The position numbers were made by a program. Positions 37,801 to 40,800 of a stretch of DNA of 64,000 nt are shown piece by piece (the first letter of the stretch is position 1; each line of letters starts with the position of its first letter). Source of the stretch: Coraliomargarita sp. GTDB lineage: Bacteria > Verrucomicrobiota > Verrucomicrobiia > Opitutales > Coraliomargaritaceae. Location: NCBI GenBank assembly GCA_965216325.1, contig OZ244160.1:2336001-2400000 (forward strand), read 5' to 3'.

Positions 37801-40800
37801 GGATGCGGATGCACTCAGTGTGATGCCAAGTGCTCCGAGTATGCCTAGTAAAGCTCGTTTCATTATGATTACTTTTTAGAGATTCTGATTGGATCGCCTT
37901 CGACGACGCACTGGATTTCCATCCAAGGCTTCGCATCGTTATCCGCAGTGACGGATACAGTATGCCAGCCGGTGCCGGCAGCTTCGCCGGATTTCTGAAC
38001 CTTGAGTTCTTCGATTCGGTTCCAGTTGTTGTCATAGACAGTGGCGGTGTTGCCTCCGGTGTATTGGAGATACTGGCCTGTTTGAATCGTGCCGAGGACT
38101 TTGATGCTTTGTGTCCCACAGTGGATGACCGGATTGACGAGTTGTGACGCCTGCTCCTTGAGCGCCTTGATGCCTTCGACGGTGACATTGGCATGGGTGG
38201 AGGCGGGAACTTTGCCAAAGCCGATCTTGAGTGTGGGGTTCTTTGTGTAGTCGGCATGCTTCCAGGTCGCCATGCGCCAGCCCCACAAGCCTTCGGCCCA
38301 AGCGGCTTCGCCGTGCGGAATTTCGATGTAGCGGCGGCCCTTAAAGTTGATTGGCACGACGTAATCGCGCTTCGGCAGTTGAAGAACGAGCAATGCGTTG
38401 GAGCCATCGCCATCGACCCACATGCCGAGCGAGCGGTTTGCGCTGAGGTCGAGGGCTTCCTGCCACTTCGGTAGCGTGGACGTTTGCCATGATGGAGTTG
38501 CTTCGTTGTTGCGGTAGCTGAGCATCAAGGCAGCACCTTCGTCGGTGGCGACTGTGTCTTTGAGGTCTTGCAGCGTGTCTGCCGCAGGGCTCAGCGCGAG
38601 GTTGGATGCGTCATCATAATCCGTAGCCCAGAGCATTCGGATGGTGAATTGTATCTCTTGCGGTGCGAATGGGTTTTCAAGTTCAAGCTTGTCGCCCGGT
38701 TTGATGAATTGCTTCGGCGCGATACTGCCGTGCTCTTGACCAATGCTCCATTTAACGTCGCGGTTTTTTTCCTTTCGAGTCATGACCTTAGTCGGGTAGA
38801 TCGCATAGGAATCTGCTTCCTCTTTAAGCACCTGCACGAGGTCGGATTGTGTGTGGTTGCCGCCGAGGACGATTTGATCATGGGATTTATCGTCGACACG
38901 CAGGATGGCTTTGCGCTGCTCGTCAGTCATCAAGTCTGCAGCTTTTTTCCATGTGGCGACCAGCTTGCAGATTTCTTGAGACAGGCCGTGTGTGCGGAGG
39001 TCTTCGATACTGACGCCACGGTCCTGAGTTTTGATGCCGTAAACGGCACTCTTGGTTGCGGCGACTTGGCTCAACTGAAAGTTGGCATCCATAATCGTCG
39101 TGGCCGGACGTGAGGGATGCTCCGGCATCAGTGCGACGTAGTATTGGTGGCCTTTGATCGGCCCCACGATTTCTTTGGTCGCGTTAAACTTGTATTCGAA
39201 ATTACTTTCGGGCGGGCGCTCTGCGCTACTGTCGGCCATCACAGGGTGCTCGAGTTTTTCGTAAACCTTGGCCGCGAACTTATTATAGCCCCAGCCGATG
39301 GAGCGGGAGGGTCCCTCGTAGCAGTGGATTTCGCCGCCGTCGAACTCGGTGTTCTTCACTCCGGTTTCGTTGATCAGATCCGCAAAGTTGTGGGCGATCT
39401 CATCCAGTAGGGTGGAGCTGTTGTCCGGCAGGAAGTTGTGACCATAAGTGTCGATTAACCCCGCGGCATCGGTGCCTTCTGTATGTGCTGCGGCCAAAGT
39501 GGTGTATTTGCCGCGCTCGCAGTCCTTGAGAATCCAAACGTTTTGGTCGCTTTCCTCGAAGGATCCGACTTTGATGATCTCGTCACCAATACGCATGTGC
39601 TTGAAGTCATGGAAGAAGTGCATTGCCGGTGGAAGGGCATCGAAATTGTGCACGTTCGCACGCGGGATTTGATAGGGCAGCTCAACGCCGTAGTTTGGCT
39701 TGAAGTGAATGGTTGTTTGCGACGCATCAATGTCGCCGACGATGGTGCCGCCACCCCAGCTTGCGAGACGGCGATCCGGCTTAGTGCCGATATACTTTGG
39801 GTCGTGGTAGCCGATGCCACCACTAACATAGTGGAACAGCAGGCGCATGCCACGCTGTTGGAGGTATTCCGAGAACTCGGTGACATCCTTACGGCCCTGT
39901 GGGAAGATGTCCAAGTTGATGCCTTCGTTGGTCGTGTCGTTTGGCCAATAGTCACCACGCCAGATCCAGGGCATGAGATAGATGCCTTTGAGGCCAGCGG
40001 CTTCGGCATACTTGGAGCCCTCGTAGAGGTCTTCGAGCGAGTCCGCTTCGAACATCATACGGCTTTGGTCTGAGTATTCCTCCAGCCACGCGCGCATCCA
40101 CTGTTGAGCCGCTTCGTAGTTCCACTCGCCTTCGACAGCCGGGTGGGGGAGATCGAGTTCGCCCCACATGTGTAGCAGGGTGTCGTCTTCGTCGTGAGCA
40201 TCGCTTGGGCAGTAGAGTGCAAAGCCTCCGAGTGGATCATCTGCGTAGCGATGGTAGAGGAAGGGGAAGTTGACTTGGATGCGACCTTTCAGGCGATCCA
40301 GATGAGGCACCATGAAGTCGAGGGCGAGTGCTTTGACATTGCCCGTGGTGTTCATCTCGAAATGAAGCGTGAGGGCGCTGGATTGAGGGATGCCTTTAAG
40401 GCGCTCAATATTCAGCCCGACATACTTTTCTCCTTCGGTGATTTTGAAGATGATCTGCTGTGTGCCGTTGTCGGACTCAACGACGAGTTGCCCCGGTTCG
40501 CGAATCTCAACAACAGGCAGGTCGATCACTGCCTTGCTGGCATTGGCCAGATAGAAGCCTTTGCCGGGGGACGCGACATTCAAAAGCTCGGTGCCATCGG
40601 ATAGTTCAAAGGATGCCGGCTTGCCGTCTGCGGCGAAGCGTAGCGTGAAGCGTTCGTTTTCGAGTAAGGCAGATGCGAATGATAGTTGAGCCAACAGAAT
40701 GCTCCCCATGCATGTCGCGATCATTTTCTTCAGTCTATATGTTTTCATAGATGTTTAAATGTATGGATAATGTAGATGGATACTAAAGTGAATCGTTAAC

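What a model noticed while it worked through the whole genome (the two positions that open the first line are those of the whole stretch)
37869..40748. Dark ~950-aa protein family with four paralogs in fucosidase/sulfatase loci has a clan GH-D/GH101-like glycosidase fold [...]
g02105 (959 aa) and its paralogs g00387 (C1:413898-416942), g00378 (C1:394966-398910) and the N-terminal 950 residues of g00406 (C1:445760-453835) have no Pfam, NCBIfam or PDB sequence match for this region (Swiss-Prot: only a 166-residue carbohydrate-binding-module-like stretch of g00378, call 117), yet form a large family (767 cluster representatives). The confident model shows N-terminal beta-sandwich + (beta/alpha)8 barrel + two C-terminal beta-sandwich domains, the architecture of retaining alpha-glycosidases (GH36/GH31/GH101; the barrel alone is as close to GH13) at 7-12% identity. 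All four genes lie in loci with GH29/GH95 fucosidases, sulfatases and sugar transporters, so they are can [...]
Evidence so far: No rows for g02105 in pfam/ncbifam/swissprot tables; Pfam at E<=0.01: none for g02105, one sub-threshold unrelated hit for g00387; PDB phmmer E<=0.01: none. Paralogs: search_genomes own genome 1.6e-110 to 3.4e-58, blastp 27-58% id. over 560-1040 aa. Exhaustive phmmer over 1.84e9 representatives: 767 hits E<=1e-3, 190 at 1e-30; ESM Atlas nearest clusters 'hypothetical', commonest Planctomycetota; 0 of 150 other Verrucomicrobiia genomes sampled have a match at 1e-40. AlphaFold2 with 20-seq alignment A4: pLDDT 90.0, pTM 0.87. Foldseek PDB: GH101 endo-alpha-N-acetylgalactosaminidases 2zxq/5a59/3ecq E 3e-14 to 8e-13; GH31 (5f7u, 6jr8), GH36 (4fnu, 2xn0, 8x1b) E 1e-11 to 1e-8. 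VIA-align second loo [...]
(Added by a program. Inside this text positions count along the whole contig: contig position 2,336,001 is position 1 of the stretch shown here. "Call 12" and the like, gene names such as g00115 and contig names such as C1 are that model's own, and its searches are not shown. The text may have been shortened before it was handed on; [...] marks where a part breaks off. The agent that wrote the report below was given it as the finding of a first reader that could run no searches.)

Follow-up and report, generated by a model that had tools for sequence, protein, structure and literature searches.

The report
Unclassified alpha-glycosidase-like enzyme family, esterase-partnered
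A 959-residue secreted protein with no database annotation is most likely the catalytic member of a large, unnamed family of sugar-cleaving enzymes that bacteria of the Planctomycetes-Verrucomicrobia group use, together with esterases, sulfatases and fucosidases, to break down acetylated, sulfated, fucose-rich polysaccharides.

Summary
Window 37869-40748 (-) is an intact 959-aa ORF with a signal peptide. It has no Pfam, NCBIfam or PDB sequence match. It has three paralogs in the same genome and 767 cluster representatives at E<=1e-3.

Asp470, at the end of strand beta4, is present in 182 of 182 aligned relatives and is the predicted nucleophile.

New here:
- The most conserved neighbour is a ~600-aa alpha/beta-hydrolase esterase. 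It is adjacent in 25 of 74 loci, fused in 2 relatives and present in this locus.
- The relatives fetched with taxon names are almost all from the PVC group, and many come from lake, bog or fen records.
- GH174 and GH187 are excluded by fold.
- The 668-aa neighbour, not the target, fits a newly reported alpha-galactosidase family.

Activity, substrate and CAZy status remain untested.

The parts
37869..40748 (-). Target gene, 959 aa plus stop: the member of the unannotated family
   Evidence: ORF list and translation. No Pfam, NCBIfam or PDB sequence match.
40668..40748 (-). Residues 1-27: signal-peptide-like N-terminus (a basic start, a hydrophobic core, then Ala-Ser-Ala)
   Evidence: Read directly from the translation. 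A helix at residues 3-22 with low pLDDT in the model. The cleavage site is inferred; no predictor was run.
40209..40667 (-). Residues 28-180: N-terminal beta-sandwich (13 strands)
38844..40208 (-). Residues 181-635: two linker helices plus the (beta/alpha)8 barrel, the catalytic domain
39414..39824 (-). Residues 309-445: beta-rich insertion between strand beta3 and helix alpha3. It carries Glu390, Arg412 and His422.
   Evidence: DSSP. Conservation: E390 175 of 182, R412 175 of 181, H422 168 of 182. Weak PF23666 (Rcc01698_C) match at about 385-427 in 35 of 45 members. Foldseek on the barrel also retrieves pyruvate kinases; that these and GH13 carry an inserted domain at the same place is recalled, not tested.
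39339..39341 (-). Codon of Asp470, the predicted catalytic nucleophile (last residue of strand beta4, local motif TEFDGGEIH)
   Evidence: D in 182 of 182 aligned family proteins. The only invariant charged residue among 71 barrel sequences (D291 of alignment A3). Strand 466-470 by DSSP. The role is inferred by analogy with GH13, GH27, GH31, GH36 and GH101.
39195..39197 (-). Codon of Glu518, the best candidate for general acid/base (short helix after strand beta5)
   Evidence: E in 164 of 177. Kept in all three paralogs. The role is inferred. Alternatives are Glu390, Glu672 and Asp/Glu554 (82% acidic).
38616..38843 (-). Residues 636-711: first C-terminal beta-sandwich, with the W-x-x-G-Q-E-H-G loop (Glu672)
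   Evidence: DSSP. E672 in 166 of 167, G674 96%.
37872..38615 (-). Residues 712-959: a jelly-roll domain (about 712-870) like CBM11/CIA30, followed by a small terminal beta-sandwich (about 871-959)
44647..46893 (-). First gene of the six-gene minus-strand run: 748-aa sulfatase with an N-terminal hydrophobic stretch
   Evidence: PF00884, E 2.4e-43. N-terminus.
42634..44640 (-). 668-aa divergent GH36-like protein without a signal peptide (see Noticed in passing)
   Evidence: Glyco_hydro_36N, E 1.1e-3. PDB 2xn0, E 8.4e-3. Distant relatives named alpha-galactosidase at E about 1e-29. N-terminus.
40800..42641 (-). 613-aa sodium:solute symporter
   Evidence: PF00474, E 2.7e-38. TIGR00813.
36487..37863 (-). 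458-aa GH29 alpha-L-fucosidase with signal peptide, 5 nt downstream of the target
   Evidence: PF01120, E 1.8e-74. N-terminus.
34957..36483 (-). 508-aa sulfatase with signal peptide, last gene of the run
   Evidence: PF00884, E 1.6e-58. N-terminus.
46978..48450 (+). Divergently transcribed 490-aa esterase with two GDSL stretches
   Evidence: PF13472, E 1.4e-51, 2 stretches.
48447..51263 (+). 938-aa protein: GDSL esterase, then an alpha/beta-hydrolase module of the family's conserved partner type, then NPCBM
   Evidence: Pfam. Partner-profile match E 5.2e-180, HMM positions 41-621 of 673.
51366..61109 (+). 3247-aa protein with SASA-type and GDSL-type esterase domains and Ig-like repeats
   Evidence: Pfam.
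61723..64000 (+). Start of a 2127-aa protein (it runs off the window): a SASA esterase domain plus a second copy of the partner alpha/beta-hydrolase module
   Evidence: Pfam on the window part. Partner-profile match E 6.5e-117 at residues 1343-2006 of the whole frame.

Best explanation
The gene encodes an exported glycoside hydrolase. It belongs to a large sequence family that Pfam, NCBIfam and the PDB do not cover.

Anatomy:
- a signal peptide;
- an N-terminal beta-sandwich;
- a (beta/alpha)8 barrel with a ~135-residue beta-rich lid inserted between beta3 and alpha3;
- a beta-sandwich carrying an invariant Glu loop;
- a CBM-like jelly roll and a small terminal sandwich.

Mechanism. I propose retaining double displacement, as in the alpha-glycosidase barrels of GH36, GH31, GH27, GH13 and GH101. 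Asp470, at the end of beta4, attacks the anomeric carbon. A conserved glutamate acts as acid/base: Glu518 most likely, Glu390 or Glu672 otherwise. His306, Arg412 and His422 would line the sugar site.

Cellular role in this organism. The enzyme works outside the cytoplasm on an O-acetylated, sulfated, fucose-rich polysaccharide of the fucoidan type. It acts with the locus's acetyl-esterases, two sulfatases and a GH29 fucosidase. The products enter through the sodium:solute symporter, and a cytoplasmic GH36-like enzyme finishes them.

Shown: the ORF, the family, the fold class, the invariance of Asp470 and the gene neighbourhoods.
Inferred: catalysis, stereochemistry, residue roles, substrate, and whether the enzyme cuts inside chains or from their ends.
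For: Fold:
- Whole model pLDDT 89.5, pTM 0.87. Barrel model pLDDT 91.9, pTM 0.91.
- On the whole model, GH36 and GH31 alignments include the N-terminal sandwich, with 368-428 residues aligned.
- Foldseek on the whole model puts GH101, GH31 and GH36 first.

Weak sequence echoes in the same direction:
- Distant members touch Melibiase (E 4e-3) and GH97 (26.7 bits, cut-off 32.5) over beta1-beta3.
- hhalign against 5 GH36 sequences aligns the same stretch.
- The nearest named ESM Atlas clusters are DUF6259, DUF5696/GH101 and Melibiase/GH31, at about 0.8.

Catalytic residue:
- Asp470 in 182 of 182; E672 166 of 167; R412 175 of 181; E390 175 of 182; H306 176 of 184; E518 164 of 177.
- All are kept in the three paralogs, except that two paralogs have Arg at position 306.
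- Asp470 is the last residue of strand 466-470.

Export: signal-peptide-like N-termini on the target, the GH29 and both sulfatases.

Context:
- A six-gene minus-strand run with gaps of -8 to 51 nt.
- Four esterase genes transcribed divergently next to it.
- The paralogs lie among GH95, two GH29 genes, sulfatases, GH2 and GH31.
- In related loci of at least 8 kb, a GH29 lies within 10 kb in 15 of 57 and a sulfatase in 15 of 57.
- A homolog of one ~600-aa alpha/beta-hydrolase lies within 10 kb in 26 of 57 such loci. It lies within 300 nt of the family gene in 25 of all 74 loci.

Natural fusions: to GH29 in P0006; to that hydrolase in P0100 and P0137, 2 of 203 proteins.

Extracellular modules: relatives carry CBM6, CBM35, F5/8-C, NPCBM, LamG, dockerin and PATR modules, typical of enzymes that act on polymers outside the cell.
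Against: - There are no activity data and no expression data.
- GH36, GH13 and GH31 are statistically tied, so the clan cannot be named.
- No residue-level superposition was possible, because the tools return no coordinates. The roles of Asp470 and Glu518 therefore rest on strand position and conservation only.
- Glu518 is replaced in 13 of 177 relatives. The position where clan GH-D would place its acid/base (after beta6) is only 82% acidic.
- By recalled family chemistry, enzymes of these clans act on alpha-D-sugars. Alpha-L-fucosides are their mirror-image series, so a fucan backbone is not the obvious substrate.
- Within two genes of the family gene, 5 of 26 loci have a sulfatase and 3 of 26 a GH29. 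Many relatives come from records labelled lake, bog or fen. The fucoidan reading may hold only for the marine sub-clade.
Confidence: 0.55

Rival explanations
1. It is an exo-acting alpha-D-glycosidase (galactosidase, N-acetylgalactosaminidase, glucosidase or xylosidase type). It trims rare side-chain sugars from the polysaccharide and does not cut a fucose backbone.
For: The best barrel matches are exo-acting GH36 alpha-galactosidases and galactosaminidases. By recalled family chemistry, these clans act on alpha-D-sugars. Alpha-galactosidases of GH36 and GH97 release galactose from Fucus fucoidan (PMC13668718, passages seen). F5/8-C and NPCBM modules occur in relatives; by recall these usually bind galactose-type sugars.
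Against: The same operon already encodes a GH36-like enzyme. The protein is large, and many relatives carry CBMs, dockerins and surface repeats, which is more usual for enzymes that act on polymers. Four divergent paralogs in one 3.06-Mb genome suggest varied, complex substrates. None of this is decisive.
Confidence: 0.25
2. The family's real substrate is not fucoidan but another O-acetylated heteropolysaccharide (pectin-like, cyanobacterial or microalgal exopolysaccharide). The fucosidase/sulfatase context is a local specialisation of one marine sub-clade.
For: An esterase is the commonest neighbour: 12 of 26 loci within two genes, against 5 of 26 for sulfatase and 3 of 26 for GH29. It is adjacent in 25 of 74 loci. 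Other neighbours include GH28, GH78, GH92, GH116-like and LacI regulators. Many record titles name lakes, bogs or fens.
Against: For this gene and its closest relatives, the context is sulfatase plus GH29. These relatives are 73-88% identical and include Pontiella desulfatans, where synteny with the 668-aa gene is kept. GH29 lies within 10 kb in 15 of 57 loci, and one relative is fused to GH29.
Confidence: 0.3
3. The family already has a CAZy number, in a family without a Pfam model or a solved structure, so it is not new.
For: CAZy could not be queried. New families are created often: four in the preprint 10.64898/2026.05.19.726164 alone.
Against: - No PDB sequence or close structural match up to 2026.
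- Source names are only 'hypothetical protein'.
- GH174 and GH187 are described as beta-sheet folds (PMC12534559).
- GH107 and GH168 are, by recall, represented by solved structures, so a member should have matched in the PDB sequence searches, and none did.
- GH_New2 has a different domain plan.
- Seven literature searches found no description.
Confidence: 0.12
4. It is not a hydrolase. It could be a binding or scaffold protein on a dead barrel, or an enzyme of other chemistry (transglycosylase, phosphorylase or lyase) on the same fold.
For: Fold does not prove function. GH13, GH31 and GH66 neighbours include transglycosylases and synthases. The acid/base residue is unresolved.
Against: An invariant Asp at the canonical nucleophile position (182 of 182), with several near-invariant Glu, His and Arg residues, argues for a live active site. 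An exported location without a nucleotide or phosphate supply disfavours a phosphorylase. The operon partners are all hydrolases.
Confidence: 0.1

Closest known systems
GH36 alpha-galactosidases and alpha-galactosaminidases (e.g. Flavonifractor plautii FpGalNase 9awt/9ayu, Thermotoga TmGalA 5m0x/1zy9, Geobacillus AgaA 4fnp)
   Different: Identity 6-13%. No Melibiase, GH36N or GH36C Pfam match in any of 45 members at E<=1. The N-domain is shorter (~150 aa). A ~135-residue insertion follows beta3. There are ~320 residues of C-terminal domains rather than one small sandwich. The position expected for a GH-D acid/base (after beta6) is not strictly conserved.
GH101 endo-alpha-N-acetylgalactosaminidases (EngBF 2zxq, SpGH101 5a55-5a59, 3ecq)
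   Same: Top Foldseek hits of the whole model (E 1.4e-15 to 7.5e-13). Large multi-domain secreted enzymes with a barrel flanked by beta-sandwich domains. An acid/base one strand after the nucleophile (D764 and E796, read from the PDB titles), as proposed here for D470 and E518.
   Different: TM-scores of 0.25-0.29 and rmsd of about 28 A over the whole chain: the domains are arranged differently. Not among the 50 best rows for the barrel alone. No PF12905 match.
GH13 / clan GH-H enzymes (trehalose synthase 5h2t/5x7u, oligo-1,6-glucosidases, SusG 3k8k, amylosucrase 3ucq)
   Different: GH13 alignments cover 251-334 residues and mostly start at model residues 215-228, missing the N-terminal sandwich. 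No alpha-amylase Pfam match. No conserved Asp at beta7: position 576 is acidic in only 65%. The genomic context has nothing to do with alpha-glucans.
GH31 (YicI 8t7z, Agd31B 5i23, lmo2446 5f7u, sulfoquinovosidase 6pnr, MYORG 7qqf)
   Different: No PF01055 match in the target. Identity 8-12%.
GH_New2 alpha-D-galactosidases of the preprint 10.64898/2026.05.19.726164 (zobellia_334, B2K_10610)
   Same: A newly found clan GH-D family discovered in GH29-containing loci. Sandwich-barrel-sandwich plan.
   Different: GH_New2 has a 281-residue, 18-strand N-domain and a single 91-residue C-domain. The target has ~150 residues and 13 strands at the N-terminus and ~320 residues after the barrel. That plan fits the 668-aa neighbour gene instead.
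Known endo-fucanase families GH107, GH168, GH174 and GH187
   Same: Possible functional analogy: secreted enzymes in fucoidan loci of Bacteroidota, Planctomycetota and Verrucomicrobiota (PMC11685898 and PMC12534559, passages).
   Different: GH174 and GH187 are described as beta-sheet-dominated folds (PMC12534559). GH107 and GH168 are smaller barrels which, by recall, have solved structures; no chain of any kind matched the PDB sequence searches.

Membership tests
Clan GH-D (GH27/GH31/GH36) | Sequence membership: a match to the family HMMs (Melibiase PF02065, Glyco_hydro_36N/C, Glyco_hydro_31 PF01055) | tested here: not met
   0 families for the target at E<=0.01. None of these families appears in any of the 45 members at E<=1. 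Only one distant relative (P0056) touches Melibiase, at E 4e-3 and 16.6 bits against a cut-off of 27.
Clan GH-D (GH27/GH31/GH36) | A (beta/alpha)8 catalytic barrel preceded by a beta-sandwich | tested here: met
Clan GH-D (GH27/GH31/GH36) | Asp nucleophile at the C-terminal end of beta4 | tested here: met
   Asp470 is the last residue of strand 466-470 and is present in 182 of 182 relatives. It was not confirmed by superposition or experiment.
Clan GH-D (GH27/GH31/GH36) | Asp acid/base after beta6 | tested here: inconclusive
   The nearest acidic position after strand 537-539 is 554: D 44%, E 38%, other 18%. Glu518, after beta5, is better conserved (164 of 177).
GH101 | A match to Glyco_hydro_101 (PF12905) and the GH101 domain arrangement | tested here: not met
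   No PF12905 match. Whole-chain TM-score 0.25-0.29 and rmsd about 28 A despite Foldseek E of 1e-15.
GH13 / clan GH-H | Alpha-amylase HMM match and the four conserved regions with the Asp/Glu/Asp triad (beta4, beta5, beta7) | tested here: not met
   No alpha-amylase Pfam match. The Asp on beta4 is present and a Glu after beta5 is plausible, but the beta7 position (576) is acidic in only 65%.
GH13 / clan GH-H | A domain inserted between beta3 and alpha3 (domain B) | tested here: met
   Insertion at residues 309-445, between strand 302-308 and helix 446-462. GH13 chains top the Foldseek list for the barrel.
GH97 | A match to PF10566 above the gathering score | tested here: not met
   Only one distant relative (P0147) scores, at 26.7 bits against a cut-off of 32.5. 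The target has no match.
GH174 / GH187 endo-fucanases | A beta-sheet-dominated catalytic fold (as stated in PMC12534559) | tested here: not met
   The target's conserved core is a (beta/alpha)8 barrel. The paper passage was seen. Sequences of these families were not available for a direct comparison.
GH107 / GH168 endo-fucanases | Sequence similarity to solved members | tested here: not met
   phmmer and a 45-sequence profile against all PDB chains gave no glycosidase match below E 1. That solved members of both families are in the PDB is recalled, in part from the title of PMC12534559.
GH_New2 (preprint 10.64898/2026.05.19.726164) | Domain plan: a 281-aa N-sandwich, a TIM barrel and a 91-aa C-sandwich | tested here: not met
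   Target: ~150-aa N-sandwich, a barrel with a 135-aa insertion, and ~320 aa of C-terminal domains, against section 8 of the preprint.
GH_New2 (preprint 10.64898/2026.05.19.726164) | Sequence similarity to zobellia_334 or B2K_10610 | not testable with these tools
No structure of it appears in the PDB copies searched.
Any numbered CAZy family | A hit to the CAZy/dbCAN family models | not testable with these tools
   No CAZy or dbCAN library is on hand.

The most novel reading that the evidence does not exclude
The family and its conserved alpha/beta-hydrolase partner form a previously unrecognised two-enzyme module, fused into one chain in some bacteria. The esterase strips O-acetyl groups and the barrel enzyme then cuts alpha-linkages inside acetylated, sulfated, fucose-rich polymers. 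This would be a new endo-acting 'fucoidanase' family, and a new carbohydrate-esterase family, specific to the Planctomycetes-Verrucomicrobia-Lentisphaerae group. It would supply a missing step in the turnover of recalcitrant algal polysaccharide in the sea and in lakes.
Probability: 0.2. Interest if true: 0.8.

Novelty: new variant of a known kind. Interest (0 to 1): 0.6.

Why it matters
Fucoidan-type polysaccharides are a slow-turnover carbon pool, and the enzymes that open them are only partly known. Recent papers still list many locus genes as unresolved (PMC13668718 and PMC11685898, passages).

A family with 767 representatives at 50% identity sits next to fucosidases, sulfatases and above all esterases. 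It is a concrete, testable candidate for one of the missing activities.

If active, it would:
- define a new glycoside hydrolase family in the alpha-glycosidase barrel superfamily;
- point to a new esterase family;
- improve annotation of hundreds of genomes of the PVC group, where these genes are now 'hypothetical'.

If it proves to be an ordinary exo-alpha-galactosidase-like enzyme, the gain is a routine CAZy family addition.

Tried and rejected
- Residue-level mapping of the active site by superposition was not possible. The fold tools return ranges and scores only, and no model coordinates reach the script box.
- Profile-profile comparison of the family (A1) with 5 GH36 sequences from related genomes (A2) aligned only beta1-beta3, with probability 5%. 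It does not reach the nucleophile.
- The family profile against PDB sequences gave designed TIM barrels as best hits (E 5.8e-5), from one repeated beta-alpha unit. FpGalNase scored only E 1.
- GH174 and GH187 were considered and rejected on fold.
- GH_New2 was considered for the target and rejected on architecture.
- Expression: no RNA holder was listed among the 13 runs returned; 5 rows hold the DNA or part of it, from 2 studies.
- The promoter and terminator scan of 34400-47400 was uninformative: 5 promoter-like sites against 7.3 expected, 18 terminator-like sites against 12.3 expected.
- Literature: seven searches found no paper that describes this family. I saw passages of PMC11685898, PMC13668718, PMC11943901, PMC12534559 and 10.64898/2026.10.06.756941. 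I saw passages and full sections 7 and 8 of 10.64898/2026.05.19.726164. That preprint's Table 1 and additional files, which hold sequences and catalytic residues, were not seen.

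
Full report
**1. The observation**

Window 37869-40748 on the minus strand is a single open frame of 959 codons with an ATG start. 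Its first 27 residues look like a Sec signal peptide: a basic start, a hydrophobic core, then Ala-Ser-Ala.

No annotation could be attached to it:
- The protein matches no Pfam family at E<=0.01 and no NCBIfam model at E<=1.
- At E<=10 it matches only three chance-level PDB chains, best E 0.18.
- A profile of 45 family members finds nothing meaningful in the PDB either. The best hits are designed TIM barrels that match one beta-alpha unit repeatedly. The GH36 enzyme FpGalNase appears only at E 1.

The family is nevertheless large. The word-indexed search lists 58 relatives. Every name a source gives them is 'hypothetical protein'. The closest named one is PDESU_06290 of Pontiella desulfatans, at 74% identity.

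The genome is one contig of 3.06 Mb. It holds three paralogs that are 27-57% identical to each other and to the target over 563-1039 alignment columns. None has a Pfam match at E<=1e-5 over the family region.

**2. Anatomy**

AlphaFold2 with a 45-sequence alignment gives a confident model, pLDDT 89.5 and pTM 0.87. I also folded residues 180-640 alone with 71 sequences taken from related loci. That model has pLDDT 91.9 and pTM 0.91.

By DSSP the chain reads as follows:
- a 13-strand beta-sandwich (residues 28-180);
- two linker helices;
- a (beta/alpha)8 barrel (about 226-620), whose third strand (302-308) is followed by a beta-rich insertion of about 135 residues (309-445) before helix alpha3;
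- a beta-sandwich (636-711);
- a jelly roll (712-870);
- a last small sandwich (871-959).

**3. What the fold resembles**

*Whole model.* Foldseek ranks the GH101 endo-alpha-N-acetylgalactosaminidases first (E 1.4e-15 to 7.5e-13). The GH31 enzyme lmo2446 follows at about 1e-12, then GH36 enzymes at 1e-11 to 1e-9. TM-scores are only 0.2-0.3 and rmsd is 12-28 A. The likeness is therefore one of domain types rather than of their arrangement.

*Search without Foldseek.* The search of 48,161 representatives gives the same picture for the whole model.

All 50 rows listed are retaining alpha-glycosidases or transglycosidases. Rows within one Z unit are ties, so GH36 cannot be separated from GH13.

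Two topological points pull in different directions:
- The GH36 and GH31 alignments include the N-terminal sandwich. Most GH13 alignments start at residues 215-228, though a few start as early as 145.
- An inserted domain after beta3 is a GH13 hallmark (domain B; recalled). It explains why Foldseek on the barrel retrieves GH13 and also pyruvate kinases.

Sequence echoes are faint but point the same way:
- A distant member touches Melibiase at E 4e-3, and another touches GH97 at 26.7 bits, below the 32.5 cut-off. Both matches lie over beta1-beta3.
- hhalign against five GH36 sequences aligns the same stretch, with probability 5%.
- The nearest named ESM Atlas clusters are DUF6259, DUF5696/GH101 and Melibiase/GH31, at scores near 0.8, which are leads only.

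I conclude that the protein has the barrel of the alpha-glycosidase superfamily. Its domain order is that of clan GH-D, and it has a GH13-like insertion. It belongs to none of these families by sequence.

**4. Catalytic residues**

I aligned 203 family proteins to the family profile: all those returned by the searches plus the three paralogs.

| Residue | Location | Conservation |
|---|---|---|
| Asp470 | last residue of strand beta4 (466-470) | 182 of 182 |
| Glu672 | loop of the first C-terminal sandwich | 166 of 167 |
| Arg412 | beta3-alpha3 insertion | 175 of 181 |
| Glu390 | beta3-alpha3 insertion | 175 of 182 |
| His306 | end of beta3 | 176 of 184 (Arg in 7) |
| His422 | beta3-alpha3 insertion | 168 of 182 |
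| Glu518 | short helix after beta5 | 164 of 177 |

Asp470 is also the only invariant charged residue among the 71 barrel sequences (D291 of A3). Its position is where the nucleophile sits in GH13, GH27, GH31, GH36 and GH101 (established knowledge). The PDB titles of 5a58, 5a59, 5npc and 4fnu name such mutants.

All three paralogs keep Asp470, Glu390, Arg412, His422, Glu518 and Glu672.

The position where clan GH-D would place its acid/base, after beta6, is acidic in only 82% (position 554). The GH13-type third carboxylate at beta7 is not conserved: position 576 is acidic in 65%.

I therefore propose Asp470 as nucleophile with fair confidence, and Glu518 as acid/base with low confidence. Glu518 has a GH13/GH101-like placement one strand after the nucleophile. 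Glu390 and Glu672 are alternatives. This is inference. No superposition could be made, because the tools give no coordinates.

**5. Context in this genome**

The target is the fourth gene of a six-gene minus-strand run, with gaps of -8 to 51 nt:

| Gene | Window coordinates |
|---|---|
| sulfatase | 44647-46893 |
| 668-aa GH36-like protein | 42634-44640 |
| sodium:solute symporter | 40800-42641 |
| target | 37869-40748 |
| GH29 alpha-L-fucosidase | 36487-37863 |
| sulfatase | 34957-36483 |

. The target, the GH29 and both sulfatases have signal-peptide-like N-termini. The 668-aa protein does not.

Four esterase genes are transcribed divergently from this run:
- a double-GDSL protein (46978-48450);
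- a 938-aa protein with GDSL, alpha/beta-hydrolase and NPCBM domains (48447-51263);
- a 3247-aa protein with SASA and GDSL domains (51366-61109);
- a 2127-aa protein with SASA and alpha/beta-hydrolase domains, which runs off the window (from 61723).

The three paralogs lie in one island at C1:384-458 kb. Its other genes are:
- glycosidases: GH95, two GH29, GH2, GH31 and a GH127-like gene;
- several sulfatases;
- four GFO/IDH/MocA oxidoreductase genes and three 3-keto-disaccharide hydrolase genes;
- transposases.

**6. Context across the family**

A scan of one genome per species returned 74 loci. By record title they divide as follows:

| Group | Loci |
|---|---|
| Verrucomicrobiota in the wide sense, including Kiritimatiellia | 37 |
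| Planctomycetota | 13 |
| Lentisphaerae group | 11 |
| Abditibacteriaceae | 1 |
| a MAG labelled Bifidobacteriaceae | 1 |
| no taxon named | 11 |

So 61 of the 63 named loci are from the PVC group. Many titles carry lake, bog or fen labels.

*Wider neighbourhood.* I searched the locus ORFs with the window's own proteins. GH29 homologs occur in 15 of the 57 loci of at least 8 kb, sulfatase homologs in 15 of 57, the symporter in 3 of 57 and the 668-aa protein in 2 of 57.

*Immediate neighbours.* I scanned with Pfam the two genes on either side in the first 26 loci: 85 of 217 neighbour ORFs. The other 132 were not scanned. By my count of that output, esterase-type domains (AXE1, DLH, GDSL, BD-FAE, S9) appear in 12 of 26 loci, sulfatases in 5 and GH29 in 3.

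*The esterase partner.* I followed one recurrent neighbour, a 673-aa protein with weak AXE1/DLH matches, using three jackhmmer rounds over the locus ORFs.
- Homologs occur in 32 of 74 loci, and in 26 of the 57 loci of at least 8 kb.
- They lie within 300 nt of the family gene in 25 loci, mostly on the same strand.
- The same module is fused to the family domain in two relatives: P0100 (E 1e-149) and P0137 (E 9.5e-145), of 203 proteins searched.
- It occurs twice in this window's esterase cluster, and once more 17 kb beyond the window's end.
- Its best PDB sequence matches are nucleophile-elbow segments of cutinases, acetyl xylan esterase and a CE15-like esterase, at E 1e-3 to 1e-2.

*Other links.* One relative is fused to a GH29 domain (P0006). 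Long relatives carry CBM6, CBM35, F5/8-C, NPCBM, LamG, dockerin, Ig-like and PATR modules.

The most general statement about the family is therefore that it works on O-acetylated complex glycans outside the cell. The sulfated-fucan context belongs to the marine sub-clade that holds the target.

**7. Distribution**

Within the organism's own class, 18 of 201 genomes, counting its own, have a match at E<=1e-20. Only one other genome has strong full-length matches: G188, at 2.5e-113 and 2.0e-89. The rest match only parts of the profile, at about 1e-21 to 1e-27.

The closest homologs of the target are 73-88% identical, and those that carry a name come from Pontiella desulfatans and unclassified Verrucomicrobia MAGs. 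Pontiella desulfatans also has the ortholog of the 668-aa gene three locus tags away: PDESU_06287 at 70% against PDESU_06290. This suggests that the operon moved between lineages, but I did not build a tree.

**8. Comparison with the literature**

Four endo-fucanase families are recognised: GH107, GH168, GH174 and GH187 (PMC11943901 and PMC11685898, passages).
- GH107 and GH168 have solved members (recalled). Neither the protein nor its family profile matched any glycosidase chain in the PDB sequence searches.

A 2026 preprint from the CAZy group reports four new families. One of them, GH_New2, is an alpha-D-galactosidase family of clan GH-D found in GH29 loci. It has a 281-residue N-sandwich, a TIM barrel and a 91-residue C-sandwich (10.64898/2026.05.19.726164, sections 7 and 8). 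That plan does not fit the target. It fits the 668-aa neighbour well. The sequences are in supplements I could not see, so this remains a lead.

Seven full-text searches found no paper on the target family. CAZy itself could not be queried.

**9. Verdict**

The finding is real and its interpretation is supported. The gene most likely encodes a secreted, retaining alpha-glycoside hydrolase of an unclassified family, with Asp470 as nucleophile. It works with esterases, sulfatases and a fucosidase on an acetylated, sulfated, fucose-rich polysaccharide.

Still open:
- the leaving sugar (alpha-D-type side chain or fucan backbone);
- endo or exo action;
- the acid/base residue;
- CAZy status.

It is a new variant of a known kind of enzyme, not a new kind. 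Its value lies in the size of the family, the esterase pairing, and the current interest in missing steps of fucoidan breakdown.

Noticed in passing
window 42634-44640 (-): The 668-aa operon neighbour is itself almost unannotated: Glyco_hydro_36N at E 1.1e-3 only, and PDB 2xn0 at E 8.4e-3. It lacks a signal peptide. It has 64 relatives, with distant ones (23-25% identity, E about 1e-29) named alpha-galactosidase, and its Pontiella ortholog PDESU_06287 is called alpha-galactosidase by UniRef. Its length and apparent domain plan fit the GH_New2 alpha-D-galactosidase family of preprint 10.64898/2026.05.19.726164. It is probably a cytoplasmic enzyme that finishes an imported alpha-galactoside.
   Followed up: partly
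window 46978-64000 (+) and beyond: Four consecutive carbohydrate-esterase genes with seven esterase-type domains in all (GDSL, SASA, alpha/beta-hydrolase). One gene encodes 3247 aa and another 2127 aa. This is an unusually heavy de-acetylation arsenal next to the operon.
   Followed up: partly
L011:12896-14914 and homologs; window 48447-51263; G000:C1:2416948-2419032: A module of about 600 aa with an alpha/beta-hydrolase core has only weak AXE1/DLH/S9 Pfam matches and PDB matches limited to the nucleophile elbow. It is the family's most conserved neighbour (adjacent in 25 of 74 loci) and is fused to the family domain in P0100 and P0137. It may be an unclassified carbohydrate-esterase family.
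   Followed up: partly
target residues ~385-427 (window ~39468-39596): The beta3-alpha3 insertion gives a weak but recurrent match to Pfam PF23666, 'Rcc01698-like, C-terminal', a domain named after a Rhodobacter gene-transfer-agent protein. It appears in 35 of 45 members at E<=1. One member (P0039) passes the gathering score, 28.2 against 27 bits. The segment carries the near-invariant Glu390, Arg412 and His422.
   Followed up: partly
G000:C1:402495-443686 (loci L088-L091): Four GFO/IDH/MocA oxidoreductase genes and three 3-keto-disaccharide hydrolase (PF06439) genes are interleaved with the paralogs. Three of them form adjacent oxidoreductase-hydrolase pairs, which suggests an oxidative route of glycoside cleavage in the same island.
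   Followed up: no
G000:C1:408512-412633 (L089:6512-10633): A 1374-aa natural fusion of an MGH1-like (GH63-type) glycosidase domain, a sulfatase domain and two F5/8-C modules.
   Followed up: no
G000:C1:416947-420681 (L089:14947-18681): A 1245-aa protein with no Pfam match at E<=1e-5 lies directly downstream of the 1014-aa paralog. It is another unannotated large protein in the island.
   Followed up: no
G000:C1:394969-398910 (-), flanked by 388852-389769 and 398953-400188: The 1314-aa paralog has its N-terminal sandwich twice: residues 9-178 and 216 onward both align to target residues 16-184 and 29 onward. It is flanked by an rve-type integrase gene and an ISL3 transposase gene, next to a truncated sulfatase.
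   Followed up: no
G188 (same family) versus the rest of the class; P0002-P0005, L008: The distribution is patchy. One of 200 other genomes of the class has strong matches, while the nearest homologs (73-88% identity) that carry a name come from Pontiella desulfatans and unclassified Verrucomicrobia MAGs, and the gene order is shared with Pontiella. This suggests lateral transfer of the operon. No tree was built.
   Followed up: partly
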